A DNA stretch of 64,000 nt from a virus. Lineage: Duplodnaviria > Caudoviricetes. Positions 36,403 to 48,154 of the stretch are shown in pieces (position 1 is the first letter of the stretch; every line of letters starts with the position of its first letter). Where the stretch lies: positions 143,795 through 207,794 of the IMG/VR virus record IMGVR_UViG_3300031994_000006. One strand, given 5' to 3'. The notes beneath the pieces are model-generated. The model was not told where the DNA came from, made no database searches, and saw nothing but the letters and a program-made list of their open reading frames with translations. The translations under genes were made by a program, and so were the position numbers.

Positions 36403-36433
36403 AAATCCCGGAACCTCAGGTTCCGGGATTTTT
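36403..36433. terminator. bidirectional intrinsic terminator
   Basis: AAATCCCGGAACC-TCA-GGTTCCGGGATTT between convergent genes. Confidence 0.8.
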
Positions 36434-36436
36434 ATA

Positions 36437-37456
36437 TCAATCAGGACTCCATCTTTCCCATATGATTGTCGCGACGGTATCCGGATTGAACAAAATCAGG
36501 CTTTCCAGATCTTCATAGTTATACCGTCCGCCGCTCCAATGCTTTGTCTCGTTTACGATATCGACTATAAACGGATTTTCAGCCCCTATGTACAGATTGA
36601 CCGTTATGAAATTCGTCTCGATTCCTTCATCGGTCCTGTACTTTACGGGAAATCTCTCCAGGCTTCCGTAATACAGTTCGGGATATCGTTTATTCTCCTG
36701 ACGGCCGAACCATTTTATATGTTCGGGCAGTATTTCGACCTTGTGTACATGATATCCGGTGGTGAGCCTGTCTGAGATTATCTTGGTCCATGTCCGGAAT
36801 ATCTGCTCAGGGGCCGGTCCGGCCGAGTCGACGGCATCCCGGGCGGACTCCTTCTTCCTGGCAGTATTGCCGGCCCTGAAGGCCTCATTGACGGGTTTCG
36901 GTACAAACGGACATTCTGTCATGACAGGACTATCGGGATCCTCGATGATCGGCTCCTCATACATCAGCTGTCTTTGTATCTCGAACAGCGCCTCATGGAA
37001 CTTCCGGGCGAAATTCAACGTACTGACGCCCTGACAGGTACAGCTGAAGTAGTCATAGGTCTGTATGCTGTCACCGCGGATTTCCATCCCGCCGTCGAAT
37101 ACGTCGATTGCCATTACCCAGTCACACAGCTCGTTCTCATCCTGGTCACGCAGCCAGAAATGGACAGGTATGAACATCTCCCGGATCTCTTCATCATCGA
37201 AATCATCCGGAATGAGTTCACGCTCTATCATCTTCCTGTAATCATTTTCCCGATAGAATACAAGACGGACCGAATCTGTGGTGATATGAACCAGGAAATT
37301 GAACAGGTTCTTTTCCAGCCATTTCCTGACGAAATTCCTGTCGAACGGTATCTGGATACCTTCGACCGCATTCTGGGCGGATTCCTTCTTACGTGCCCGG
37401 TTACCCGCCTTGAACGCCTCTGTCAGCTGTCCGTATATCCTGTCAAGCCTCGGCAT
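36437..37456 (-). CDS. modular protein with 2 EAFxAGNxARKKES motifs
   Basis: Motifs at 37379-37420 and 36845-36886; N-terminus RLDRIYGQLTE shared with 38951-39553. Confidence 0.8.
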   Translation of the reverse strand: MPRLDRIYGQLTEAFKAGNRARKKESAQNAVEGIQIPFDRNFVRKWLEKNLFNFLVHITTDSVRLVFYRENDYRKMIERELIPDDFDDEEIREMFIPVHFWLRDQDENELCDWVMAIDVFDGGMEIRGDSIQTYDYFSCTCQGVSTLNFARKFHEALFEIQRQLMYEEPIIEDPDSPVMTECPFVPKPVNEAFRAGNTARKKESARDAVDSAGPAPEQIFRTWTKIISDRLTTGYHVHKVEILPEHIKWFGRQENKRYPELYYGSLERFPVKYRTDEGIETNFITVNLYIGAENPFIVDIVNETKHWSGGRYNYEDLESLILFNPDTVATIIWERWSPD

Positions 37457-37459
37457 ACC

Positions 37460-38083
37460 CTATCTGAGTGATTTGAAGTAGTCGATGATTCCCCTTGCGT
37501 GCACTTCGGCGATCTCGTCACGGCCCTCATCGCTCATTAGGAATCCGACGTCCTCCCTGTTGTCATGGAAGAAGTTCTCCGTCAGACAGCACGGGCAATC
37601 GGCTCCCTTGATTATCTGGAAGTTCGACTCGAAATCGGGATCTTTGTCAGACCTGTCGGCCCTGAGAATCCTGGCGGGCGTATTGTCCCAGTACCAGTTG
37701 GCACGGTTCCAGATACAGGTGGCGAGTACGTCGGACCTGTTCTGTCCCCTCGTCGTGTAGACGGACCAGCCGTGAGCCTTCATCCACTGTCCGTTACCGG
37801 ACGCGTTCGAGTGCACGGACACCATGACGCAGTTGCCGGCGCCGTACTGTGCACAGACGCGGTTGATGCGGCGTACGCGTTCGTTCAGCGATATGTCCTT
37901 CGTCTCAGGCACGACGATATGGACGTTGAATCCGCATGCCCTGAGAAGGGCTGTGGTCCTGTTGACGACGTCACGGGCGAACTCGGCCTCATGATACAGG
38001 CCGTCGGGCGAGCACTTTCCTCCGGTCAGGGGAGGCGTGCCGTGTCCGTTATCGAGTATAATACAGAATTTGCTCTTGTTCAT
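37460..38083 (-). CDS. N-acetylmuramoyl-L-alanine amidase (Amidase_3)
   Basis: ILDNGHG, HEAE, VSVHSNA and LTENFF zinc-amidase motifs. Confidence 0.9.
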   Translation of the reverse strand: MNKSKFCIILDNGHGTPPLTGGKCSPDGLYHEAEFARDVVNRTTALLRACGFNVHIVVPETKDISLNERVRRINRVCAQYGAGNCVMVSVHSNASGNGQWMKAHGWSVYTTRGQNRSDVLATCIWNRANWYWDNTPARILRADRSDKDPDFESNFQIIKGADCPCCLTENFFHDNREDVGFLMSDEGRDEIAEVHARGIIDYFKSLR

Positions 38084-38093
38084 GATATTTCGG

Positions 38094-38369
38094 TTATACT
38101 GTCTGGTCGACGACCTGTCCGCCGAGTTTTGTTATCTGGTCGATGAGCTGTGCGCGCTGTTTCTGATACGTAAGCGTGAGCTGGTTCAGCCTGAGCTGGA
38201 GCTGCTGCACCTGCTGCTGATTCTGCTGCTGGGACTGGGCCTGATCCTGCGCCTGCTTAGCGGCCGCGGCGGCCTGCTGCTGGTTCTGGACCGGCGTCTG
38301 GGCGGCCGCTACGTTCTGAGACGCCTTGCCGAAGTTCTCATACAGGCGGACTTTCACGTTCTTTGACAT
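38094..38369 (-). CDS. small Gln-rich coiled-coil protein
   Basis: 91 aa, RLYE near the N-terminus, GGATAAATA motif upstream. Confidence 0.6.
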   Translation of the reverse strand: MSKNVKVRLYENFGKASQNVAAAQTPVQNQQQAAAAAKQAQDQAQSQQQNQQQVQQLQLRLNQLTLTYQKQRAQLIDQITKLGGQVVDQTV

Positions 38370-38447
38370 AATTATACTGGTATTTTCAGGGATATTTATC
38401 CGGGGACCTGATAAATATCATTGCAATAGAAAAGGGTTTGAAAGACG

Positions 38448-38954
38448 ATGAATACCGAAAATACACAGGCCTTTGACAACGGCGGCAGGATCCTCGGATC
38501 CGTCGACAGTATGTCGTATCTCCCCGGATACGGCAGGCTGAGCCGTCTGCTGCAGCGGTGGCGCAGGAGGCATCATACCGGTATCGCGGATCAGTGGGTG
38601 TCATTCGGTGCCAGGGCGTTCGACATAGGTCTCGCATTCACGAAAAACGACCGCGCCTATTTCAGGCACGGCCGGATATCATACTATACGGAGTCGGTCT
38701 TCGGCGTCATGCAGGAGCTCAATCTCCGCAGCGCGATAGTCAGGCTGACATACGAGGGACCTGACTGTCCTGAGTTCAATAAGAAATGGCACGACAGGTT
38801 CCACAAGATGTGCAGGATGCTGGAACAGATTTATCCGAACATACTTTTCTGCGGCGGATGCGACCGCATGGGGAACCGCCTCTATACCTTCAACGGTGAC
38901 GGCCTGTCGGATCCGTCACTTATAGACTGGAATCTTAAGACGAGCAGGTTCTAA
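38448..38954 (+). CDS. PI-PLC-like phosphodiesterase-fold protein (possibly degenerate)
   Basis: DSMSYLP..., IADQW..GARAFDI..., FRHG pattern. Confidence 0.5.
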   Translation: MNTENTQAFDNGGRILGSVDSMSYLPGYGRLSRLLQRWRRRHHTGIADQWVSFGARAFDIGLAFTKNDRAYFRHGRISYYTESVFGVMQELNLRSAIVRLTYEGPDCPEFNKKWHDRFHKMCRMLEQIYPNILFCGGCDRMGNRLYTFNGDGLSDPSLIDWNLKTSRF

Positions 38955-39553
38955 CCGATCCGGTCACAGAAGCCGCTGTACCTGAGCCATTCGCTTCCGT
39001 ATATCCTGTAGTCGTCGTTTGGACGGATGACTTCATATCTGATATCTTGTCTCTTGACCCAGTCAAGAAGACCTTGTGAATTGATGATCCAGATTGACGA
39101 TATCGGTTTGATGAACAGTGATTTCGGAAGCTCGTCAATTCCGGGACAGTCGACTATATTCAGGTTGCCCGTGACATGCACGCGTTCCGGGAATGCCTTT
39201 AAGGGAAGATTCTTTATCAGCAGGTCACAGTCGAAAGTCAGGTCATTCGCAAGCTGTTTGAAATTCGGGCAGCTGTCGATAATCACGGTATAATAGAAAT
39301 GCGTTTCCGGCGGTATTACCGTGAACTTCTCGTCATTCTCCATTACAAGTCCCCTGTTGACCAGGTATTCGCCCGATCTCGAATCGATGTCAGGCTTGAT
39401 ATTCGTCTGTTCTGTGAACAATTCGAGCATCTTCTCCCTGCCGGAAACCTGCAAGGTATCCACGGTACCGGCGGCAGACTCCTTCTTACGCGCCTGATTG
39501 CCGGCCCTGAAGGCCTCGGTCAGCTGTCCGTATATCCTGTCAAGTCTCATCAT
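38951..39553 (-). CDS. LRR module protein with 1 EAFRAGNQARKKES motif
   Basis: Motif at 39476-39517; short LRRs. Confidence 0.8.
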   Translation of the reverse strand: MMRLDRIYGQLTEAFRAGNQARKKESAAGTVDTLQVSGREKMLELFTEQTNIKPDIDSRSGEYLVNRGLVMENDEKFTVIPPETHFYYTVIIDSCPNFKQLANDLTFDCDLLIKNLPLKAFPERVHVTGNLNIVDCPGIDELPKSLFIKPISSIWIINSQGLLDWVKRQDIRYEVIRPNDDYRIYGSEWLRYSGFCDRIG

Positions 39554-42537
39554 CCGTTATATCCTCCTTCACGATATTCCTCGAATTTCTCAGGATGCTC
39601 GACGGCATCGACAATCCTGTCGAATACGTATTCAAGACCCTGTGAATCGACTTCATCACCATCATACATATACGTCTCAAGTCCTTCGACGGAGAACATC
39701 ACATGTATGCTGTATATGCCGGTTTTCTCCAGCGGATAGATTGATATATTGAAATAGAACTCAAAATCACACGGCATATCGACATAGAATGAAATCGCGT
39801 CCCCGCCGATGTTCTTGACGTCATCGGGACTTACAAGATCCCTGAGCCTGTTCATCTGGGTATTCAGGACCGGAATGTCTGAATAGTGGAGTTCCTCGAA
39901 ACTGCCCTGTGCGGCATCGGCGGCAGACTCCTTCTTACGGGCCTGATTACCCGCCTTGAAGGCCTCGTCCATGTCATAGTCGTCATAAACCGACATCCTT
40001 TCAGTGACTTCTTTATTCCAAAATTCAATACAGTCGATAATTTCCTCTATGGATTCACTGACAGCGTCTTCAAATGTATCGTATATATTGTATGACTCAT
40101 TGACGTCCCTGCCGTCACAGGCTCCGCCGATTGAGAACGCGTATCCGTCTTCAGGATTCACCGGCACATAGATGAATATGTATCCGGCCGCATATCCGTT
40201 TTCGAAATCTATATCAAAATCATCAATGCAGCCGCCCCAGCTGTCGACTTTGATACGGTGCATATAATAATGTTCCTTAGGAGCGTCATCGATTTCGATA
40301 TTGTCGCCGAAGTTCTCAGCAGTCCATATGTTCGATTCGGCTGAAGCCTTATTGACGGCCTTGACGATCTCAGCGGCCCACCTGGTCAGCTGACCCTTCG
40401 GACTGTCGTCTTCAGTACCCTGGACGGCGTCGGTGGCGGATTCCTGTTTTCTTGCCCGGTTGCCGGCCTTAAAAGCTTCATTCGCATTAAGAATTTTATC
40501 AGCCAGACGGCGTTTTTTCATCCAGTCTATTTGTTTGATATTATGTCTGACCTGTGAATGAAGGGGACTGTTAGGTCTAACCGGCGGTGTAATTACCGGT
40601 ATATTGAGTTTTTCAATAAAAGGCATAAGACTGTCCGGAATATCAAAAATACTCCCTAAGTCAGTCTTGCTGCCTGAAAAGGCGTTTTCAAAGTTTAAAT
40701 CTGATGGAAGAGACGTCAGCTTATTGCAGTTTTTAAGATTTAAATGACCGAAATTAATAGTCAGTCCATGCGGCAGAAAGGTCAGTTCCGTACATCCCTC
40801 AAGATCTAAATCACCGACGGTCATTCCCTGTGGAAGTGAGGTAAGTCCGGTGCAGTCTTTAAGTATCAGATTATATTTTATAGTCAGTCCATCCGGTAAT
40901 GAAGTCAGTCTGGTGCAGCCTTCAAAATTCAAGCTATTAGGAACTGTAATTCCTTGTGGAAATGAAGTCAGTCCGGTACAGCCTTTAAGGTATATGTCTC
41001 TTCCGACCAGCAGATCAGCCGGCAAAGATACCAGTCCGGTACAGCCGGTAAGATCTAAACTGTCTCCGACTGACAGACCTTTGGGTAATGACGTCAGTCC
41101 GGTGCATCCGGTAAGATTTAAATTACATCCGATATTTTTTCCGACAGTCAGATTATCGGGCAATGACGTCAGTCTGGTACAGCCTGTAAGATTTAATGCA
41201 CTTTTAACAGGTAATCGTGGAAATGAAGTCAATCCGGTACAGTTCTCAAACTCTATACCATAACGAATGTTCATGTCATTCGGCAGATATTTCAATCCGG
41301 GACAATTCTTGACGGACAGAACACCTTCAGGAACGGCCAATTCATTCGGCAGTGCAATTAATTTAGGACAGTCTGAAATATACAGCGAGCCTCCTTTAAT
41401 AATTAATTTATCAGGTATGGATTTTAATTCGGGTATATTTTTAATAATACAATCAGGAACTGAATCATCCTGATAATAAGGCACACCGTTTTCATCAACA
41501 AAAAGCTCAATATTAGTCAGTTTTTTAAATCGTTGAATCTGTGCATCCAAACTCCCAATTTCTTCAGGAACAGCATCTGCAGCAGACTCTTTCTTACGTG
41601 CACGATTACCTGCATGAAAGGCCTCTTCTATATGAGATCCGTTCAATAAACCGGATATCATAGACCGATTCAGTCTGAACCAGAAATCGGGGCCCCATGA
41701 TTTTATAAAATCATCAATCGGATAAGCTAACTCCGCGTCAGGTGTAATATAAGTTGTTACAAATTTTACAATATATTCATAAGCCCATCTCACCGGACGC
41801 GATGAACGCGTTGAATCTGTAGAAACGATATCTTCACACCATGAAGCATAACTGTCATCATTATCATCTTCTTCAGGATCTATGAGTTCAACACCATAAT
41901 TAGGATTGAATTTTGTCCTTCTGCCATAGCCTGTTATATTAATATAAAGAAAATTATTCGGATCATCTGGATTTCCGTTATTGAATTCTTCAATAGAATA
42001 TTCAAAAGGCATTGCGGCATCAGGCATGTCCCGGTCGACGATTGTCATGGCGATTCGTGTCCATGGACAATCCTTAGGTACCCTTTTTATTATAATTGTA
42101 TAAAGATAGAGATTGCCAACGGTTCCGGCACTATAGAATTCATTTGTCCTGAGTTCCCAATCAGGATGCTGTTTTACGACACTTCGACAGAAGTTTCCTA
42201 AAAATTCATGACGCTGTCTGTCAAAATTTTCAAAATCCTTTTTATTTCCAAGCTGAAAATACTTAACAGGAAAATCTACTACACCATTTGCAGTATCGGC
42301 AACTGACTCTTTCTTGCGTGCCCGGTTGCCGGCCCTGAACGCCTCGTTCAGTTCCTCCCTATCGGATCTGCAGAACAGGCGGAACAGCCTGCCGGGGATC
42401 TTCTGGAGCCCGAAGTTCCTGTTCATCCATGCGCGTATGAACGTCCTGGGCGGCATCGCGTCCGCGTCGCCCTTTGCCGACCTGTAGCCGGTAATGCAGT
42501 CCGAGACCATCCTGGTCCACTCTATCCTGTCTTTCAT
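39550..42537 (-). CDS. modular polyprotein-like protein with 4 motifs, including a 21-aa LRR block
   Basis: Motifs at 42304, 41584, 40438, 39925; LxLxGCTGLTSLP repeats. Confidence 0.85.
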   Translation of the reverse strand: MKDRIEWTRMVSDCITGYRSAKGDADAMPPRTFIRAWMNRNFGLQKIPGRLFRLFCRSDREELNEAFRAGNRARKKESVADTANGVVDFPVKYFQLGNKKDFENFDRQRHEFLGNFCRSVVKQHPDWELRTNEFYSAGTVGNLYLYTIIIKRVPKDCPWTRIAMTIVDRDMPDAAMPFEYSIEEFNNGNPDDPNNFLYINITGYGRRTKFNPNYGVELIDPEEDDNDDSYASWCEDIVSTDSTRSSRPVRWAYEYIVKFVTTYITPDAELAYPIDDFIKSWGPDFWFRLNRSMISGLLNGSHIEEAFHAGNRARKKESAADAVPEEIGSLDAQIQRFKKLTNIELFVDENGVPYYQDDSVPDCIIKNIPELKSIPDKLIIKGGSLYISDCPKLIALPNELAVPEGVLSVKNCPGLKYLPNDMNIRYGIEFENCTGLTSFPRLPVKSALNLTGCTRLTSLPDNLTVGKNIGCNLNLTGCTGLTSLPKGLSVGDSLDLTGCTGLVSLPADLLVGRDIYLKGCTGLTSFPQGITVPNSLNFEGCTRLTSLPDGLTIKYNLILKDCTGLTSLPQGMTVGDLDLEGCTELTFLPHGLTINFGHLNLKNCNKLTSLPSDLNFENAFSGSKTDLGSIFDIPDSLMPFIEKLNIPVITPPVRPNSPLHSQVRHNIKQIDWMKKRRLADKILNANEAFKAGNRARKQESATDAVQGTEDDSPKGQLTRWAAEIVKAVNKASAESNIWTAENFGDNIEIDDAPKEHYYMHRIKVDSWGGCIDDFDIDFENGYAAGYIFIYVPVNPEDGYAFSIGGACDGRDVNESYNIYDTFEDAVSESIEEIIDCIEFWNKEVTERMSVYDDYDMDEAFKAGNQARKKESAADAAQGSFEELHYSDIPVLNTQMNRLRDLVSPDDVKNIGGDAISFYVDMPCDFEFYFNISIYPLEKTGIYSIHVMFSVEGLETYMYDGDEVDSQGLEYVFDRIVDAVEHPEKFEEYREGGYNG

Positions 42538-42538
42538 A

Positions 42539-45500
42539 TTATCCGAATTTCTCTATGTATTCTCTTAAATCCGCATTGAGCGAATCAATGCCTTCCAGGT
42601 GTACCTCAAGTATGCCGGGCAGATTCCTGTATGCGTACAGCAGTCCCGGCATGCCAGTATCCATCGATCCCGTCAGCACGCAGACATAATCACGGTTATA
42701 CTGGACGATCAGCCGGGACACGCTGTAGTTCTTGTCATCGGTTATCTGGACGCCGTCACATGTGTCATCCGTGAATGCGACCTCGGCCTTCAGCATATCC
42801 TTATAACCGCACAGCTCCAGTATCCTGTCCAGGCAGTCCGCGATGCACTGACCGGTTATGGACCGGTCATACCTTCTGTATATCCTGCCTGAGATAGGTC
42901 CCTCTTCCGGATCGATAACCGAATCTATGACGTCCTTGAACAGTTCCCTGGTGACCGGCCTGTATTCTCCGGCCGTCTGTACGGTATCCCGGGCCGTCTC
43001 CTGTTTCCTCGCCCTGTTGCCGGCCCTGAACGCCTCGCGTACGGCGCCGGCCTCTTTGAACTTATAGCATCGCGTGTACACCAGGTCCGGGACGAACTCG
43101 AGATTCGGATCACATGCCGCCTCGGCGATGTTACCGAACATGTTCGGCCATACCGCCGGTATGCTGTTGTCCGTAAGGGCCTCCCTGTTCCTCGGCTTGC
43201 CGTATCTGGTGCCGTCGGGCTTCTCCCAGGCATCGAACCATTCCGATGAGCAGTTCAGGAACTGTACTTCTGTCAGATCTGTGACATCGGGCTTTATCCT
43301 GTAGTACATCCTGTCCGCCGTGGCCTCTATCTCGAGCGTAAGCCCCGTGTCATGGAATCTGCGCCATGTTTCATCCCACATGGGATGACGGCCGAGCGAG
43401 ATCCTTATAATGTTGCCGCCGTTGTGAGGATTCCCTTCGTTTATGCTGACGTAGTACTTCAGCGAACCGTTCAGCTGTTTGTACGGCTCTTTTATATCGA
43501 TGGTCTTCTCATATCCGAGGCCGTCGAGGAATACCGCAAGTCTCTTGATCAGCTCGGCAGGTCCGTCGATCGCGACAGGGTGCTTGTCACCGACGCTTTC
43601 GACCGTATCTGCGGCGGACTCCTTCTTCCTCGCCCTGTTGCCCGCCCTGAACGCTTCCCGCATTCCGTTTTTCCAGGCATTCCACTTGCTGAAATCGCAT
43701 ATGTGCCATTTTCTCGGATTAGCGGGATTATTGGTCCCTTCTGTCGTATATCCGATATCATTCCTGATGAAGAACCTGTGCAGTTCAGAATCAGGCGAGA
43801 ATACTATACGGCCTCTGACAAGATTCGCGCCTGTCGGTATCTCTTTTATATTCGGGCAATCCTCCAGGTCAAGGTCTCCATAGTTGACGGTGAAATTAGA
43901 AGGCAGGCTTTCCAGGCCGGTGCATCCGTTAAGGTACAGGTCGAATCCGACATACAGATCCTCCGGCAGCCGCCTGAGGTTTTTGCACCGCTCGAGGTTC
44001 AGGTGATCCTCCACGTACATGTTGTCGGGAAGGTGTGTCAGGCCGTCACAGTTGATCAGGTTGACGAGCGCGTTGCACTGGACCTTCTCCGGGAAATGTA
44101 TCTCGTACGGATAGTCCGTGAAGTCCACGATGCTGCGTATGACGACGGTGCCGTCGGGCTCGATCCTGAACACATCGTCGATGCCGTCCTCATAGTACAC
44201 ACCGACGGGGACCTCGTTGTCCTTGCCCGGATTGACCGTGTCGTACCGTACGTCGTTTCCCTGCTGGATGAGCCATTCGCGGTATTTCATGACGTCGGCC
44301 ATGAACAGCTTGACCTGCTGCTCGGGCGTCAGGCCGACCGAGACGGTATCGCTGACAGACTCTTTTTTGCGCGCGCGATTGCCTGCCTTGAATGCCTCCT
44401 TGAGGTATCCGTGAGCTTTTTGCCATTCGCGCCAGTCTGACGCCTTTGTTTGTCTGTTATTGTTGTAACATGGTATCCCGAGTTTATTGAAGAACGGTGT
44501 CAGCGCACCATGGTGTATAATAAGATAGTCAGGATTGACAACCAAGTCAAACGGCAGGCTTGTCAGTGAGTCTGCCACCCACAGGTCTCTTCCGACTTTC
44601 AACCCGTCAGGCAGGCTTGTCAGTCCGGTACAGCGAGCCAGACTCAGTTCTCCCTGAACTGTCAGGCCTGCAGGCAAGTCTGTCAGTCCGGTGCAGCCTG
44701 TCAGATCCAGGTTTCTTCCGACTTTCAACCCGTCAGGCAGGCTTGTCAGTCCGGTACAGTCATACAGATCCAGGTCTCCTCCGACTTCCAACCCGTCAGG
44801 CAGGCTTGTCAGTCCGGTGCAATATTCCAGATTCAACCTTTCTCTGACTTTCAGATCATCAGGCAGACTTGTCAGTCCGGTGCAATATTCCAGATTTAAC
44901 CCTTCTCCGACTTTCAGGCCGGCCGGCAGGCTTGTCAGTCCGGTGCAATATTCCAGATTCAAGTCTCCTCCAACCTCCAGGTCTCCTGGCAGGCTTGTCA
45001 GTCCGGTACAGCCTGACAGGTTCAGCTCTCCATTGACTTTCAGGCCGGCCGGCAGGCTGGTCAGTTCGGTCCAGCCTTCCAGATTTAACCCTTCTTCAAC
45101 TTCCAGTCTGTCAGGCAGACCTGTCAGTCCTTCGGTGTCATCTGACAGATATAGGTATCCGTTAAAGTATGGATGTCCGTCCCTGATTTCGAGTTCCATG
45201 TCGGTCTGCTTCTTGAACAGATCAATCTGCGCCTGTATGGTATCGACCGTCTCAACGGCATCCTGTGCGGACTCTTTCTTGCGTGCGCGGTTACCTGCTC
45301 TGAAGGCCTCGTCCGTCTTACCGATGAGATGGCGGCGTTCCATCCAGTCTTCGGCGGCGACTTGTCCGTGTTTGTCGATTTTGATGCCGAGCCGGTTCAG
45401 GAAAGGCTTCAGGCTGTCAGGGACGTTGTATATTGAATTGCTCTGGATATCCTTGATTTCGATTTTCAGATCGGCGGGCAGCTCGGTGATGCCGTCGCAT

Positions 45501-47725
45501 TCACTGAGTCTGAGGGATCCCGTGATGTACATCCCGTGAGGCAGCGACGTCAGTCCAGTGCACCGGTGCAGGTTCAGGTATCCGTAGACAGTCAGCCCGT
45601 CGGGGAGCTTTTTCAGTCCGGTGCATCCCGCGAGGTTCAGGTTGCCGTGGACGATCAGCCCGTCGGGCAGCCTTGTCAGCTCCGTGCAGTCCTTGAGATT
45701 CAGCCAGGTGCCGAACGGCCTGCCCTGTTTAATCTCAAGCTTCGCGCCGGTCACCTTCTCGAACTCCCTGACCTGCTCCTCCAGGCTGTCGACAGACTCG
45801 ACAGTATCCTGTACGGATTCCTTCTTGCGCGCAGTATTGCCGGCCCTGAAGGCCTCCTTGAGGTATCCGTGAGCTTTTTGCCACTTACGTGCACGATTAC
45901 CTGTCCTGAAGGTCTCCTTGTGGTATCCGTGAGCTTTTTGCCACTTGTGCCAGTCTTCTGCCTTTGTGTCGCCTTCATCGTCAACTGGTATCCCGAGTTT
46001 CCTGAAGAACGGTGTCAGTATACCTTTGTGTTCAATCCAATTACCACAAACAACCAAGTCAAACGGCAGGCTTGTCAGTCCGGTACAGCCTTTCAGAACC
46101 AGTGATTTTCCGACTTCCAGTCCTGCAGGCAGGCTTGTCAGTCCGGTACAGCCTGTTAGAGACAAATCTCTTCCGACTTTCAGGCCTGCAGGCAAGCCTG
46201 TCAGTCCGGTGCAGTCATCCAACTGCAGGCTTCCTCCGATTTCCAGGCCGGCAGGCAGGTCTGTCAGCCCGGTGCAACCATTCAGATACAGACTTTTTCC
46301 AACTTTCAGGCCTGTAGACAGTCTTGTCAGTCCGGTACAGTCCATCAGTGACAGATACCCGTTAATCTCCAAGTTGTCAGGTAGGTCTGTCAGTCCGGTG
46401 CAGCCGTCCAAATCCAGATCTTTATCAAAGTACGGATGTCCGTCCCTGATCTCAAGCTCTATGCCGGACTGTTTCTTGAAAAGGTCAATCTGTGCCTGCA
46501 TGTTATCGACCGACTCGACTGTATCCTGTACAGATTCCTTCTTGCGTACACGGTTGCCGGCCCTGAACGCCTCATTCGCTGTAAGCATATTATGGATCTT
46601 GTCGAAGTCGGGCTTGCCGACGGTCCTCCACCGGTTCCATGAGAATCCTATGATACGGTTCTCAAAATCCGGCCTGTAGTCGGAACCGGCGTTGACCGTC
46701 AGGGGCTGGAGGCCGCAATCCTCCCTGAAGAACCTGTCAAGATCCTGATCATGCGGGCCGTAAATTATGAACGATCCTGTTATATTGGTATCCTTGGGCA
46801 CCTTCTTTATGCCGGAATGCGTCAGTTTCAGATCACACGCCGTTATGTCCGGCGACAGCTCAGTCAGCTTCTTGCAGTCCTCCAGGTTGAGCATTCCCGT
46901 CACGGTCAGTCCGGCCGGCAGTTTTTCCTGCTCTATGCTTACGGAGAAATCGCCTTCGACGAACGTGTTGTCGGGTATGTCGGCATTTCCTGAGAAGTCC
47001 ATACAATTCCCTTTGTAATAGGGACGGCCGTCCTTTATCTCAAGCTTGATACCGGTCTGTTCCCTGAACCTGTCAATCTGATCCTGGAGCGGATTGTGCA
47101 TGTCCGCCGCGGCATCGCTGACAGACTCTTTTTTGCGTGCCCGATTACCGGCCCTGAAGGCCTCCTTAAGATATCCGTGTGCTTTTTGCCACATACGCCA
47201 GTCCGACGCCTTTGTGTCTCCCTCTTTGTCAACCGGTATCCCGAGTTTCTTGAAGAACGGTGTCAGCACACCTGTATGTTCAATCCAAACACCCTGAACG
47301 ACCAGGTCAAACGGCAGTCCTGTCAGTCCGGTGCAGCCTGTCAGATCCAGGTTTTTATTGACCTTCAGACCGGCCGGCAGGCTTGTTAGTCCTGTACAGT
47401 CTATCAGATTCAGGTATCCATTGACTTCCAGGTCTGCAGGCAGGCCTGTCAGACCGGTGCAGTTATTCAGACACAGGTCTCCGTTGACTTTCAGGTCTGC
47501 AGGCAGGTCTGTTAGCTCGGTATAGTTTTCCAGATGTAAATATCCGTTATAGTACGGACGTCCGTCTCTGATCTCGAGCTCTATACCGGTCTGCTTCTTG
47601 AACAGGTCAATCTGAGCCTGTATGTTATCGACTGACTCGACTGTATCAGCGGCGGACTCTTTCTTGCGTGCCCGGTTGCCAGCCCTGAAGGCCTCGTTCA
47701 TTGTATCGAAGTCCATCCTGTCCAT
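42539..47725 (-). CDS. 1728-aa modular polyprotein-like LRR protein with 8 full + 1 truncated motifs
   Basis: Motifs at 47654, 47123, 46532, 45884 (truncated), 45815, 45269, 44357, 43616, 42995; many 63-nt LRR units. Confidence 0.88.
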   Translation of the reverse strand: MDRMDFDTMNEAFRAGNRARKKESAADTVESVDNIQAQIDLFKKQTGIELEIRDGRPYYNGYLHLENYTELTDLPADLKVNGDLCLNNCTGLTGLPADLEVNGYLNLIDCTGLTSLPAGLKVNKNLDLTGCTGLTGLPFDLVVQGVWIEHTGVLTPFFKKLGIPVDKEGDTKASDWRMWQKAHGYLKEAFRAGNRARKKESVSDAAADMHNPLQDQIDRFREQTGIKLEIKDGRPYYKGNCMDFSGNADIPDNTFVEGDFSVSIEQEKLPAGLTVTGMLNLEDCKKLTELSPDITACDLKLTHSGIKKVPKDTNITGSFIIYGPHDQDLDRFFREDCGLQPLTVNAGSDYRPDFENRIIGFSWNRWRTVGKPDFDKIHNMLTANEAFRAGNRVRKKESVQDTVESVDNMQAQIDLFKKQSGIELEIRDGHPYFDKDLDLDGCTGLTDLPDNLEINGYLSLMDCTGLTRLSTGLKVGKSLYLNGCTGLTDLPAGLEIGGSLQLDDCTGLTGLPAGLKVGRDLSLTGCTGLTSLPAGLEVGKSLVLKGCTGLTSLPFDLVVCGNWIEHKGILTPFFRKLGIPVDDEGDTKAEDWHKWQKAHGYHKETFRTGNRARKWQKAHGYLKEAFRAGNTARKKESVQDTVESVDSLEEQVREFEKVTGAKLEIKQGRPFGTWLNLKDCTELTRLPDGLIVHGNLNLAGCTGLKKLPDGLTVYGYLNLHRCTGLTSLPHGMYITGSLRLSECDGITELPADLKIEIKDIQSNSIYNVPDSLKPFLNRLGIKIDKHGQVAAEDWMERRHLIGKTDEAFRAGNRARKKESAQDAVETVDTIQAQIDLFKKQTDMELEIRDGHPYFNGYLYLSDDTEGLTGLPDRLEVEEGLNLEGWTELTSLPAGLKVNGELNLSGCTGLTSLPGDLEVGGDLNLEYCTGLTSLPAGLKVGEGLNLEYCTGLTSLPDDLKVRERLNLEYCTGLTSLPDGLEVGGDLDLYDCTGLTSLPDGLKVGRNLDLTGCTGLTDLPAGLTVQGELSLARCTGLTSLPDGLKVGRDLWVADSLTSLPFDLVVNPDYLIIHHGALTPFFNKLGIPCYNNNRQTKASDWREWQKAHGYLKEAFKAGNRARKKESVSDTVSVGLTPEQQVKLFMADVMKYREWLIQQGNDVRYDTVNPGKDNEVPVGVYYEDGIDDVFRIEPDGTVVIRSIVDFTDYPYEIHFPEKVQCNALVNLINCDGLTHLPDNMYVEDHLNLERCKNLRRLPEDLYVGFDLYLNGCTGLESLPSNFTVNYGDLDLEDCPNIKEIPTGANLVRGRIVFSPDSELHRFFIRNDIGYTTEGTNNPANPRKWHICDFSKWNAWKNGMREAFRAGNRARKKESAADTVESVGDKHPVAIDGPAELIKRLAVFLDGLGYEKTIDIKEPYKQLNGSLKYYVSINEGNPHNGGNIIRISLGRHPMWDETWRRFHDTGLTLEIEATADRMYYRIKPDVTDLTEVQFLNCSSEWFDAWEKPDGTRYGKPRNREALTDNSIPAVWPNMFGNIAEAACDPNLEFVPDLVYTRCYKFKEAGAVREAFRAGNRARKQETARDTVQTAGEYRPVTRELFKDVIDSVIDPEEGPISGRIYRRYDRSITGQCIADCLDRILELCGYKDMLKAEVAFTDDTCDGVQITDDKNYSVSRLIVQYNRDYVCVLTGSMDTGMPGLLYAYRNLPGILEVHLEGIDSLNADLREYIEKFG

Positions 47726-47729
47726 ACCC

Positions 47730-48062
47730 TTAACGTCCGAGTTCGGCGCCGATGGCCGTGCATACGAGTCCGGAGGTCAGCAGCTTGCCGAGCGTGCCGT
47801 GCTCGCTGACGCCGAGCACCTTGCAGAGCGCGCGCCCTATGGCAGGGCCGAGCGCCGCGCCGGCGGCCGCGCCGAGCAGTCCGGTCAGAAGTCCCTCATC
47901 AAGCTCGTCATCGAGTGACGTGCCCTTGAGCTCCGCCATCTCGGCCGACTCGAGCAGGTACGAGTAGAGCTCCTTGGCCTTCTGTATCTGCCTGGGCGTC
48001 GATCCGGTCACATCCGCTCCCTCGAAGAGCGCCTTGGTGGTTATCTTGTATTTCTGATTCAT
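47730..48062 (-). CDS. small protein with Gly-zipper C-terminus, possible head/ejection protein
   Basis: ELDE-GLLTGLLGAAAGAALGPAIG; first gene of the polyprotein operon; GGATAAATA at 48088-48096. Confidence 0.6.
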   Translation of the reverse strand: MNQKYKITTKALFEGADVTGSTPRQIQKAKELYSYLLESAEMAELKGTSLDDELDEGLLTGLLGAAAGAALGPAIGRALCKVLGVSEHGTLGKLLTSGLVCTAIGAELGR

Positions 48063-48154
48063 ATAATACGGCTATATAGTTTCCGGGTATTTATCCATAT
48101 GACCGGACCCAGCCCGGCGCGTTAAATCATTAGAGAATTTTTGTATTTCAGGGA

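What the first reader, a model, noticed from the sequence alone, without database searches (positions are those of the whole stretch)
36437..48096. Polyprotein-like genes built from modules that each begin with E-AF[RK]AGNxARK[KQ]E[ST]
Seen: 15 complete and 1 truncated copy of a 14-aa motif in four genes (2+1+4+9), each followed by a different domain: LRR blocks or unrelated ~100-250 aa domains. The motif Glu is usually in a hydrophobic-x-E context (LTE, VNE, LNE, IEE, MDE, MNE, LKE, MRE, VRE). Synonymous positions vary, so the peptide is what is conserved. The operon starts behind a GGATAAATA motif like those before the virion genes. Established: T4 gp21-type prohead proteases cut after [ILV]-x-E in head-packaged proteins. 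Inference: these are capsid-packaged polyproteins cut into ~15 effectors that share one basic N-terminal tag (for packaging, DNA binding or ejection), i.e. an expandable cassette of injected, possibly anti-defence, proteins.
Basis: partly seen in the sequence, partly recalled or inferred. Interest (0 to 1): 0.85.

Follow-up and report, generated by a model that had tools for sequence, protein, structure and literature searches.

The report
Tag-punctuated phage cargo polyproteins
A giant uncultured Prevotella-type phage joins many unrelated small proteins into long chains with one 20-residue peptide that follows a predicted head-protease cut site, probably a way to load, cut apart and deliver many proteins with the DNA, but no cutting or packaging has been shown.

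Summary
The window holds 15 full copies and 1 truncated copy of [LVMI]-x-E|AF[RK]AGNxARKKES[AV]xD[TA]V in four minus-strand genes. The whole 208-kb record holds 41+1 copies in 12 genes.

- **Peptide, not DNA, is conserved.** Synonymous codons vary freely.
- **Modules are mostly unrelated.** Without the tag, 26 modules are singletons and 12 are LRR paralogues.
- **The upstream part fits the T4 gp21 cut rule.** P1 is always Glu and P3 is hydrophobic in 29 of 33 independent contexts (P=4e-13).
- **The phage has the matching protease.** It is gp21-type, and its scaffold-like tail is the genome's densest carrier of such sites. A tagged polyprotein lies between the portal and protease genes.
- **The tag lies outside the fold.** AlphaFold places it as a low-confidence extension of a confident LRR core.
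- **Modules move at tags.** Relatives carry 1-, 2- and 4-module versions of the same genes with breakpoints in the tags. An AT-rich two-module block was inserted tag-to-tag here.
- **Bacteria carry the tag too.** Bacteroidota-type contigs encode an HExxH protein that starts Met plus the tag.

Best reading (0.55): capsid cargo polyproteins cut by the head protease, each product keeping an address tag. Cleavage, packaging and injection are untested. The "operon" is two late-type units. This scan noted the same system in other windows of this genome, and similar ones in other megaphages.

The parts
48088..48096 (-). GGATAAATA late-promoter-like motif, 26 nt upstream of the first gene of unit 1
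   Evidence: The core GATAAATA lies 31-44 nt upstream of the portal, protease and about 8 other large genes.
47730..48062 (-). First gene of unit 1: 110 aa, no tag, Gly/Ala-rich hydrophobic C-terminal half (possible membrane protein)
   Evidence: No Pfam or PHROG family.
42539..47725 (-). 1728-aa polyprotein: 11-aa leader, 8 full tags + 1 truncated tag, six LRR modules and two unique modules (207 and 164 aa)
   Evidence: LRR_EndoS Pfam hit. PDB sequence hits fall only on the LRR parts.
39550..42537 (-). 995-aa polyprotein: 65-aa untagged N-terminal module, then 4 tagged modules (unique 240 aa, LRR 382 aa, unique 171 aa, unique 137 aa)
40477..42342 (-). AT-rich two-module block (GC3 0.31-0.33 against 0.55-0.86 around it), inserted tag-to-tag
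   Evidence: Relatives P0055 and P0017 have the same gene without this 622-aa block, and the alignments break inside the tags.
38951..39553 (-). 200-aa stand-alone gene: 13-aa leader (MMRLDRIYGQLTE), tag, divergent LRR-type module
   Evidence: Orthologues of 197-198 aa exist in relatives.
38393..38401 (-). Second GGATAAATA motif, 24 nt upstream of unit 2
38094..38369 (-). First gene of unit 2: 91-aa Gln-rich protein, no tag
   Evidence: only a weak PHROG hit.
37460..38083 (-). Endolysin (N-acetylmuramoyl-L-alanine amidase, Amidase_3), no tag
   Evidence: Pfam PF01520 E=1e-22. phrog_435 E=2e-36.
36437..37456 (-). 339-aa gene: 13-aa leader (MPRLDRIYGQLTE), then two tagged unique modules (178 and 148 aa)
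   Evidence: Orthologues at 75-86% identity keep the leader, both tags and the module order.
36403..36431 (-). Terminator-like hairpin (13 pairs) just after the last tagged gene
47654..47695 (-). Tag 1 (TMNE|AFRAGNRARKKES)
47123..47164 (-). Tag 2 (YLKE|AFRAGNRARKKES)
46532..46573 (-). Tag 3 (TANE|AFRAGNRVRKKES)
45824..45943 (-). 60-nt tandem duplication of a module junction. The upstream unit holds the truncated, decayed tag (YHKE|TFRTGNRARK, 45884-45916). The downstream unit runs into full tag 4.
   Evidence: 51/60 nt identical. The decayed copy has changed P3 (L to H), P1' (A to T) and +4 (A to T), all positions that are fixed elsewhere.
45815..45856 (-). Tag 4 (YLKE|AFRAGNTARKKES)
45269..45310 (-). 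Tag 5 (KTDE|AFRAGNRARKKES)
44357..44398 (-). Tag 6 (YLKE|AFKAGNRARKKES)
43616..43657 (-). Tag 7 (GMRE|AFRAGNRARKKES)
42995..43036 (-). Tag 8 (AVRE|AFRAGNRARKQET)
42304..42345 (-). Tag 9 (ELNE|AFRAGNRARKKES)
41584..41625 (-). Tag 10 (HIEE|AFHAGNRARKKES)
40438..40479 (-). Tag 11 (NANE|AFKAGNRARKQES)
39925..39966 (-). Tag 12 (DMDE|AFKAGNQARKKES)
39476..39517 (-). Tag 13 (QLTE|AFRAGNQARKKES)
37379..37420 (-). Tag 14 (QLTE|AFKAGNRARKKES)
36845..36886 (-). Tag 15 (PVNE|AFRAGNTARKKES)

Best explanation
The four genes encode precursors of proteins carried inside the phage head.

Each junction has two parts. The first is a short cut signal, hydrophobic-x-Glu, read by the phage's T4 gp21-type head-maturation protease. 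The second is a roughly 20-residue peptide, AF[RK]AGNxARKKES[AV]xD[TA]V, that becomes the new N-terminus of every released module.

Stand-alone genes and the first modules of chains carry a 9-14-residue removable leader that ends in the same cut signal. This is the layout of the T4 capsid-targeting sequence.

The proposed course of events is as follows. The chains are made late and enter the prohead core. The protease cuts them into about 15 modules from this window (41 genome-wide). Each module keeps the tag as a flexible N-terminal handle. The handle probably serves as a shared address, for retention on a common partner in the head or for exit with the DNA.

Because every module begins with the same in-frame peptide, whole modules can be inserted, deleted or duplicated at the tags. 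This makes the set an expandable cassette.

Shown here: the motif, its selection at peptide level, the cut-rule signature, the protease gene, the tag lying outside one fold, and module gain and loss at tags. Inferred: cleavage, packaging, injection and what the modules do.
For: 1. The motif is two-part.
- P1 Glu is present in 41/41 copies.
- P3 is L/V/M/I/F in 29 of 33 independent contexts, against a background of 0.27 (P=4e-13).
- P2, P4 and P5 are hydrophobic in only 2-4 of 33 contexts.
- This equals the L/I-x-E rule of T4 gp21, which was first seen at a Glu-Ala bond (PMC9026906).

2. The genome encodes the matching protease.
- It is a gp21-family protease: PF03420 E=2e-12, phrog_207 E=1e-38, and an alignment to T4 gp21 structure 5JBL.
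- Its 580-aa acidic tail holds most of the 18 [LIVMF]xE[AGS] sites in the whole 766-aa protein, against 3.2-3.8 expected (P=8e-9). This is the highest density in the genome, as for the T4 core proteins that gp21 chops up.
- The capsid protein has SLNE68|A, close to the T4 gp23 cut at residue 65 (PMC9026906).
- None of these other sites carries the tag, so the tag is not needed for site recognition.

3. Gene order points to the head. The order is portal, then a 4-tag polyprotein, then the protease. A 10-tag polyprotein lies beside the capsid gene.

4. Both units in the window start behind GGATAAATA. The core GATAAATA also precedes the portal and protease genes.

5. Nine of 12 tagged genes start with a 9-14-aa leader ending in the cut signal. 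The T4 capsid-targeting sequence is 10 aa (PMC9026906).

6. In the AlphaFold model of an LRR module with both flanking tags, the core (residues 31-185) has pLDDT 85-98. The tags have pLDDT 38-56 and appear as helical extensions.

7. The redundant duplicated junction has decayed exactly at P3, P1' and +4.

8. Relatives differ by whole modules.
- A profile search of 1.84 billion proteins found 43 hits, nearly all multi-tag proteins of relatives, and every phage-type (multi-module or leader-bearing) copy has x-x-E before the tag.
- These relatives carry 1-, 2- and 4-module forms of the 995-aa gene and a 4-module form of the 1728-aa gene, with breakpoints in the tags.

9. Bacteria carry the tag without the cut signal.
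- Bacteroidota-type contigs encode a 377-aa HEMMH protein that begins Met-AFKAGNRARKKETAQD, with no Glu or hydrophobic residue before it.
- Removal of Met before Ala is the rule (PMC10052503). It would give the same N-terminus as the predicted cut, so the functional tag starts at Ala.
Against: - There is no proteomic or biochemical evidence of any kind. The phage is uncultured.
- The window's cluster is not in the head-gene region. It lies beside an SbcC-like gene and contains an endolysin.
- GATAAATA is missing upstream of the capsid gene and of three other tagged genes.
- The module bodies are acidic (median pI 5.15), unlike the basic T4 internal proteins.
- The leaders show no sequence similarity to the T4 capsid-targeting sequence.
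- The closest named relatives, Lak-A1, Lak-B4 and LR756500, lack the tag and show no repeated peptide near their portal genes.
- Twenty conserved residues on the P' side have no precedent at gp21-type sites, and their partner is unknown.
- The second structure model (the 339-aa gene) was too poor to judge.
Confidence: 0.55

Rival explanations
1. The chains are cut at the tags, but the products work in the infected cell late in infection, for example in host take-over, lysis timing or superinfection exclusion. They are not packaged. On this reading the tag is a shared handle for a cytoplasmic partner.
For: The window's cluster lies with an endolysin and a possible membrane protein rather than with head genes. 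The modules are acidic. No virion data exist.
Against: gp21-type proteases are known to act inside the assembled prohead (PMC9026906). Other tagged polyproteins lie between the portal and protease genes and beside the capsid gene. The short leaders have the layout of the T4 capsid-targeting sequence.
Confidence: 0.13
2. The motif is not cut. It is a flexible inter-domain linker that also binds one common partner (DNA, a host protein or a phage hub), and the proteins act as beads on a string.
For: The tag is predicted as a low-confidence helix between domains. The core is basic (+4). Twenty conserved residues fit a binding peptide better than a cut site.
Against: The conservation of P3 and P1, but not of P2, P4 or P5, in 33 unrelated upstream contexts has no explanation in a linker. 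Stand-alone genes keep a 9-14-aa leader before the tag. The bacterial copies start exactly at the Ala. Relatives have single-module versions.
Confidence: 0.12
3. The tag is a docking peptide that fixes many alternative binding modules, chiefly LRR, to one site on the outside of the virion (tail, fibres or capsid surface). This would resemble the conserved N-terminal anchors of multi-tailspike phages.
For: Twelve modules are BspA/EndoS-type LRR solenoids with 3 to about 13 repeats, a typical binding fold. A shared N-terminal anchor with variable C-terminal parts is the pattern of receptor-binding proteins (my own knowledge).
Against: Most modules (26 singletons) are small, non-repetitive and acidic. 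The cut signal belongs to the head protease. No tail or baseplate family was detected beside any of the tagged genes scanned.
Confidence: 0.08
4. The tag exists mainly as a recombination joint. On this reading it is a conserved in-frame sequence kept because it lets modules shuffle, and the peptide has no biochemical role of its own.
For: Module insertions and deletions among relatives break inside the tags. One inserted block has foreign composition. A junction is tandemly duplicated.
Against: Third codon positions are only 57% identical, and Arg switches between the AGR and CGN codon families. Selection therefore acts on the peptide, not the DNA. The bacterial HEMMH proteins keep the peptide at a single N-terminus where no shuffling is involved.
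Confidence: 0.04

Closest known systems
Phage T4 internal proteins IPI, IPII, IPIII and Alt, with their capsid-targeting sequence, processed by prohead protease gp21 (PMC9026906, PMC3012670)
   Same: Both have a gp21-family protease and a cut after hydrophobic-x-Glu, often before Ala. Both have a roughly 10-residue removable N-terminal leader on otherwise unrelated, fast-evolving proteins. In T4 these are head-packaged proteins that enter the host with the DNA.
   Different: In T4 the conserved address lies before the cut and is discarded. Here the strongly conserved 20 residues lie after the cut and would stay on the product. T4 proteins are single genes, whereas here up to 10 modules are chained. 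T4 internal proteins are basic, and these modules are acidic. The leaders share no sequence with MKTYQEFIAE. T4 has about 4 such proteins, and this genome has 41 modules.
Polyvalent proteins of phages and conjugative elements (Iyer, Burroughs, Anand, de Souza, Aravind 2017, PMC5512222)
   Same: Both are long phage proteins that combine many unrelated domains, thought to be delivered on invasion and processed into units.
   Different: Polyvalent proteins are defined by a known domain set (MPTase, ParB-like and methylase domains, among others) and by an embedded zincin peptidase for self-processing. None of these was found here. Processing here would be in trans at a repeated junction peptide.
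Ejection and inner-body proteins of giant phages phiKZ, 201phi2-1 and SPN3US, cut by gp21-like proteases at A/S/G-x-E (PMC10052503, PMC5694885)
   Same: These are large-genome phages with many head-internal proteins and a diverged gp21 homologue. Cuts fall after x-x-Glu, with several cuts per substrate.
   Different: In those phages the N-terminal parts are propeptides that are destroyed. No conserved retained tag and no chains of unrelated domains are described there.
Encapsulin cargo-loading peptides
   Same: In both, a short conserved peptide on diverse cargo would bind the inside of an HK97-fold shell. This is a working analogy only.
   Different: Encapsulin peptides are usually C-terminal, are not linked to proteolysis and are not found in phages. 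No binding to the shell was tested here.

Membership tests
T4-type capsid-targeted, gp21-processed internal proteins | The phage encodes a gp21-family (Peptidase_S77) prohead protease | tested here: met
   PF03420 at 50 bits, over the cut-off. phrog_207 E=1e-38. Aligns to T4 gp21 structure 5JBL, with ELDHP and VSSRA opposite the chain's GELNAP and VASRG.
T4-type capsid-targeted, gp21-processed internal proteins | Cut signal L/I-x-E at the end of a short N-terminal propeptide | tested here: met
   Sequence level only. Nine of 12 genes have 9-14-aa leaders ending [LIVMF]-x-E|A. P3 is hydrophobic in 29/33 contexts, P=4e-13.
T4-type capsid-targeted, gp21-processed internal proteins | Leader resembles the T4 capsid-targeting sequence (MKTYQEFIAE) in sequence | tested here: not met
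   Leaders are MxRLDRIYGQLTE, MDRMDFDTMNE and similar. They are like the T4 sequence in length and end only.
T4-type capsid-targeted, gp21-processed internal proteins | Proteins are present in virions in cleaved form and are ejected | not testable with these tools
   The phage is uncultured and no proteome is available.
T4-type capsid-targeted, gp21-processed internal proteins | Late expression together with head genes | tested here: inconclusive
   GGATAAATA precedes both units, and GATAAATA precedes the portal and protease genes. It is absent before the capsid gene and three other tagged genes. No transcript data exist.
Polyvalent proteins (Iyer et al. 2017) | Two to 15 unrelated domains in one phage polypeptide | tested here: met
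   There are 9 and 5 segments in the two large genes. Twenty-six of the genome's modules have no similarity to each other.
Polyvalent proteins (Iyer et al. 2017) | Characteristic domain set with an embedded MPTase or other peptidase | tested here: not met
   Pfam, PHROGs and PADLOC find only LRR and one weak GNAT hit in the tagged proteins.
Leucine-rich repeat proteins (BspA / EndoS type) | Tandem 21-residue LxxLxLxxCxxLxxLP repeats that fold as a solenoid | tested here: met
   PF23952 E=1e-17 and PF13306 E=1e-30. Tandem repeats of 63-nt period. AlphaFold core pLDDT 85-98. PDB hits are LRR proteins only.

The most novel reading that the evidence does not exclude
Megaphages of this lineage use a transferable two-part addressing code. 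A head-protease cut signal exposes a retained 20-residue N-terminal tag, and that tag alone routes any protein into, or out of, the capsid. This lets the phage assemble, swap and expand dozens of delivered proteins as in-frame cassettes. Host Bacteroidota have copied the exposed form of the tag onto a zincin-like protein, either to enter the same route or to intercept its partner, as a defence.
Probability: 0.3. Interest if true: 0.85.

Novelty: new variant of a known kind. Interest (0 to 1): 0.72.

Why it matters
If the reading holds, it extends the T4 capsid-targeting principle in three ways.
- It moves from a handful of single proteins to a cassette system that carries about 12% of a giant phage's coding capacity.
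- It would be a retained address peptide, in contrast to the discarded T4 capsid-targeting sequence.
- It gives a simple sequence rule for listing the delivered protein repertoire of uncultured megaphages from sequence alone.

The tag would also be a candidate tool for loading foreign proteins into large capsids. The bacterial proteins that start with the exposed tag would point to a host counter-measure aimed at the cargo route. About 30 function-unknown modules would become a catalogue of candidate early-acting phage proteins.

Tried and rejected
**Searches for relatives and copies**
- Megablast of the 13-kb region against GenBank phages found no match.
- A back-translated tag pattern found no other IMG/VR record.
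- The relaxed pattern in 185,579 species genomes gave one hit, in a Faecousia contig outside any ORF. About 0.3 chance hits were expected, so I reject it as chance.
- A portal-based locus search in IMG/VR returned only 23-25% identical fragments.

**Lak-type relatives**
- The Lak-A1, Lak-B4 and LR756500 whole records have no match to the tag profile.
- There are no peptide 6-mers repeated three or more times within 15 kb of their portal genes.
- They have no homologue of the AT-rich inserted block.
- I guessed an alternative tag (GLNxKxKKF) from other members of the bacterial HEMMH family. It is not found in those phages.

**Function of the unique modules**
- Pfam, PHROGs and PADLOC gave nothing.
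- PDB sequence hits fall only on LRR parts.
- The ESM Atlas gave no usable hit for two modules.
- Foldseek on the LRR model gave only generic LRR chains at E>0.1.
- The AlphaFold model of the 339-aa two-module gene was too poor to use (mean pLDDT 45).

- Rfam found nothing in the region.
- The HEMMH protein is absent from IMG/VR.
- One search was a mistyped reference and a mis-set search term. Neither ran.
Full report
**What is there.** The window is bases 143,795-207,794 of a 207,794-bp linear IMG/VR phage record, which CheckV rates 76% complete. An identical protein also occurs on a 443,820-bp contig, so the true genome may be much larger.

On the minus strand between 36,437 and 48,096 lie seven genes:
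- a 110-aa gene;
- a 1728-aa gene;
- a 995-aa gene;
- a 200-aa gene;
- a 91-aa Gln-rich gene;
- an Amidase_3 endolysin;
- a 339-aa gene.

The motif E-AF[RK]AGNxARKKES occurs 15 times in full and once truncated. All copies lie in frame in the 1728-, 995-, 200- and 339-aa genes, and none lies anywhere else in the six frames of the window. An alignment of the 15 copies shows E, A, F, A, G, N, R, K and E invariant, with weaker conservation continuing to about +21.

**Is it more than chance, and what is conserved?** In the whole record there are 41 full copies and 1 truncated copy in 12 genes. These genes total about 8,570 residues, or 12% of the DNA.

Codon positions 1+2 are 89% identical between copies and position 3 only 57%. 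The invariant Arg at +9 uses AGG, CGT, CGC and AGA. Selection therefore acts on the peptide.

With the first 22 residues removed, the modules fall into one family of 12 LRR modules, two pairs, and 26 singletons with no BLAST similarity to each other. In the window, 8 modules are LRR and 7 are unique. Module sizes range from 135 to 382 aa.

**The upstream half is a protease cut signal.** The residues before the Glu belong to unrelated leaders or to the C-termini of unrelated modules. Even so, P3 is L/V/M/I/F in 36 of 40 copies. After collapsing related contexts it is hydrophobic in 29 of 33, against a background of 0.27 (P=4e-13). P2, P4 and P5 are hydrophobic in only 2-4 of 33.

This is the L/I-x-E rule of T4 gp21, which was first recognised at a Glu-Ala bond (PMC9026906). 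Related giant-phage proteases cut after A-x-E (PMC10052503).

The genome has a 766-aa protein whose first 190 residues are a gp21-family protease:
- PF03420 at 50 bits;
- phrog_207 at E=1e-38;
- an alignment to T4 gp21 structure 5JBL.

In that alignment the motifs ELDHP and VSSRA lie opposite the positions that read Ala in the crystallised chain. I take those positions to be the mutated catalytic His and Ser. This is an inference from memory of that entry.

The rest of the protein is a highly acidic, scaffold-like tail. The whole protein carries 18 [LIVMF]xE[AGS] sites where 3.2-3.8 are expected. This is the highest density of any gene in the genome (P=8e-9). It parallels the way gp21 fragments the T4 core proteins.

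The major capsid protein (phrog_138) has SLNE68|AQV. T4 gp23 loses 65 residues (PMC9026906). None of these other candidate sites is followed by the tag, so the tag is not required for site recognition and should have a job of its own.

**Context.** Elsewhere in the genome the gene order is portal (phrog_213), then a 1072-aa polyprotein with four tags, then the protease. A 2103-aa, 10-tag polyprotein lies divergent to the capsid gene. In T4 the core genes gp67 and gp68 occupy the portal-to-protease position (my own knowledge).

The portal is 44-46% identical to those of the Prevotella Lak megaphages, and more distantly related to T4-like portals.

The window's cluster is not in the head region. 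It forms two transcription units:
- **Unit 1.** GGATAAATA at 48,088-48,096 lies 26 nt before the 110-aa gene, which is followed by the three tagged genes.
- **Unit 2.** A second GGATAAATA at 38,393-38,401 lies 24 nt before the Gln-rich gene, the endolysin and the 339-aa gene.
- **Between them.** A plus-strand 168-aa gene with normal codon bias and its own TGATAAATA motif separates the units.
- **At the end.** A 13-pair hairpin follows the last gene.

The core GATAAATA lies 31-44 nt before the portal, the protease and about eight other large genes. It resembles the T4 late-promoter box TATAAATA (my own knowledge). It is absent before the capsid gene and before three other tagged genes, so this support is partial.

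**Leaders.** Nine of the 12 tagged genes begin with a 9-14-residue leader that ends in the cut signal. Two genes in the window and one elsewhere share MxRLDRIYxQ[LI]TE. The two largest polyproteins share M-x-x-[MI]-DFD-x-MNE.

The T4 capsid-targeting sequence is the first 10 residues of IPIII. Its residues 4 and 7 serve targeting, and residues 8 and 10 (P3 and P1) serve processing (PMC9026906). The layout here is the same, but the sequence is not.

**Is the tag part of the fold?** I modelled the first LRR module with its leader, its own tag and the next tag, using 14 aligned paralogues and homologues.
- Residues 31-185 form a confident solenoid with caps (pLDDT 85-98).
- Residues 1-30 score 49-56 and residues 186-215 score 38-68. 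Both are drawn as helical extensions.

The model of the 339-aa gene was poor (mean pLDDT 45). It shows the same tendency, with tags in segments below 50, but it carries no weight.

**Cassette behaviour.** Three observations from this window show modules moving at tags.

1. **A foreign block.** Modules 1-2 of the 995-aa gene (40,477-42,342) have GC3 of 0.31-0.33, against 0.55-0.86 for every other module. The switch falls at the tags.
   - Relatives P0055 and P0017 (376 aa) match residues 1-88 and 686-995 of this gene. The two alignments overlap in the tag, so this phage has a 622-residue tag-to-tag insertion of foreign composition.
   - P0028 (189 aa) has only the first and last modules.
2. **A shorter form of the 1728-aa gene.** P0005 (839 aa) contains, in order, homologues of modules 2, 7, 8 and 9 (67-90% identity) and none of the other LRR modules.
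3. **The truncated tag.** It is one unit of a 60-nt tandem duplication of a junction, 51/60 nt identical. The redundant unit has changed at P3, P1' and +4, which are fixed everywhere else.

**Outside this genome.** A profile of the 15 tags, searched against 1.84 billion representative proteins, gave 43 hits at E<=0.001. Twenty-six of them scored E<=1e-10. Nearly all are multi-tag or leader+tag proteins from metagenomes, and all have x-x-E before the tag. The tag is therefore specific to a small group of related phages. It is absent from other IMG/VR records and from the Lak genomes.

Four hits are different. P0041, P0042 and P0043 begin Met-AF[RK]AGN; P0040 has the same Met-AFKAGN after a 23-residue extension that is probably a miscalled start. 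P0043 carries an HEMMH motif.

A metagenome scan found this family on 20 contigs. On a 49-kb contig the 377-aa member starts MAFKAGNRARKKETAQD. Its neighbours are bacterial:
- a Bacteroidota-type hybrid two-component regulator (Reg_prop, Y_Y_Y, AraC);
- a DUF4369-thioredoxin protein;
- a ComM-type ATPase;
- a GH88 glycoside hydrolase;
- two AAA ATPases.

There are no phage genes on that stretch. A second contig repeats the same seven-gene arrangement. Other family members have unrelated N-termini.

These bacterial copies lack the Glu and the P3 residue and begin at the Ala. After the usual removal of Met before Ala (PMC10052503), they would expose the same N-terminus as a cut module. I read this as evidence that the functional tag starts at Ala and works in trans. 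Why the bacterium has it (entry into capsids, decoy, or substrate mimic of a tag-directed peptidase) is open.

**What the modules do.** This is unknown.
- Only LRR families are recognised (PF23952 and PF13306). PDB sequence hits are LRR parts of plant NLRs, SspH1 and a flagellar-motor LRR protein.
- One untagged N-terminal module elsewhere in the genome is weakly GNAT-like.
- The modules are acidic, with median pI 5.15. The 171-aa module of the 995-aa gene has net charge -25.
- That charge would suit DNA mimics or binders of host proteins, but this is speculation.

**Comparison with known systems and novelty.**
- **T4 internal proteins.** The nearest known system is the T4 capsid-targeting sequence with gp21 and the internal proteins, described as a diverse set of defence proteins with only a conserved targeting sequence (PMC3012670).
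- **Polyvalent proteins.** These share the idea of many domains delivered in one chain, but rely on an embedded zincin peptidase and a defined domain set that are absent here (PMC5512222).
- **What differs here.** The address-like peptide is retained and lies after the cut. Unrelated modules are chained, up to 10 in one polyprotein elsewhere in the genome and 8 in the largest gene here. The scale is 41 modules. Module exchange at the tags is demonstrable.
- **Literature.** A full-text search for the tag sequence found no relevant paper.
- **This scan.** Follow-ups on other windows of this genome reached similar readings, and notes on at least 17 other genomes, mostly megaphages, describe comparable tag-punctuated polyproteins. 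These are unverified AI notes and I do not count them as evidence.

**Verdict.** The mechanism is a well-supported inference with no experimental test. It is a new variant of the T4-type cargo system, with confidence 0.55 and interest 0.72.

Noticed in passing
window 38448-38954 (+): A 168-aa plus-strand gene with normal codon bias (GC3 0.72) and its own TGATAAATA motif sits between the two minus-strand units, back to back with the second GGATAAATA. It has no Pfam family.
   Followed up: partly
window 47730-48062 (-): The 110-aa first gene of unit 1 has a Gly/Ala-rich hydrophobic C-terminal half, like a glycine-zipper membrane segment. Together with the Amidase_3 endolysin at 37460-38083, it may be part of a lysis set that is interleaved with the tagged genes.
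   Followed up: no
window 36437-37456 (protein P0045): The identical 339-aa protein is on record on a second contig of 443,820 bp. The phage may therefore be a megaphage of 444 kb or more, and this 208-kb record a fragment despite CheckV's 76% estimate.
   Followed up: no
genome 29386-31686 (L003:9386-11686, minus strand): The head protease is fused to a 580-aa acidic tail with two near-identical repeats of about 35 aa (TKPNAVKDGKLGSEADNIGKQAREKEKK) and a Cys-rich CxxC cluster. This looks like a protease-scaffold fusion.
   Followed up: partly
L022:9376-16814 and L025:203-7520: Two bacterial contigs share a seven-gene block: a 171-aa protein, the tag-bearing HEMMH protein, a variable protein of about 370 aa, 180-aa and 332-aa proteins, and two AAA ATPases. 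It may be a defence island. PADLOC does not know the HEMMH protein; the other genes were not scanned against PADLOC.
   Followed up: partly
genome 102922-103623 (protein P0037): A 233-aa gene starts with a leader and a degenerate tag (LWE|AFNAGNRARKKES). It has a homologue, P0038, in a relative with EAFQAGNKARRKES. This makes a 42nd tagged module, slightly off consensus.
   Followed up: no
window 44582-45130, 46065-46345, 47313-47548: The LRR arrays are 63-nt tandem repeats at 72-79% identity. Repeat number ranges from 3 to about 13 between paralogous modules, which suggests ongoing expansion and contraction.
   Followed up: partly
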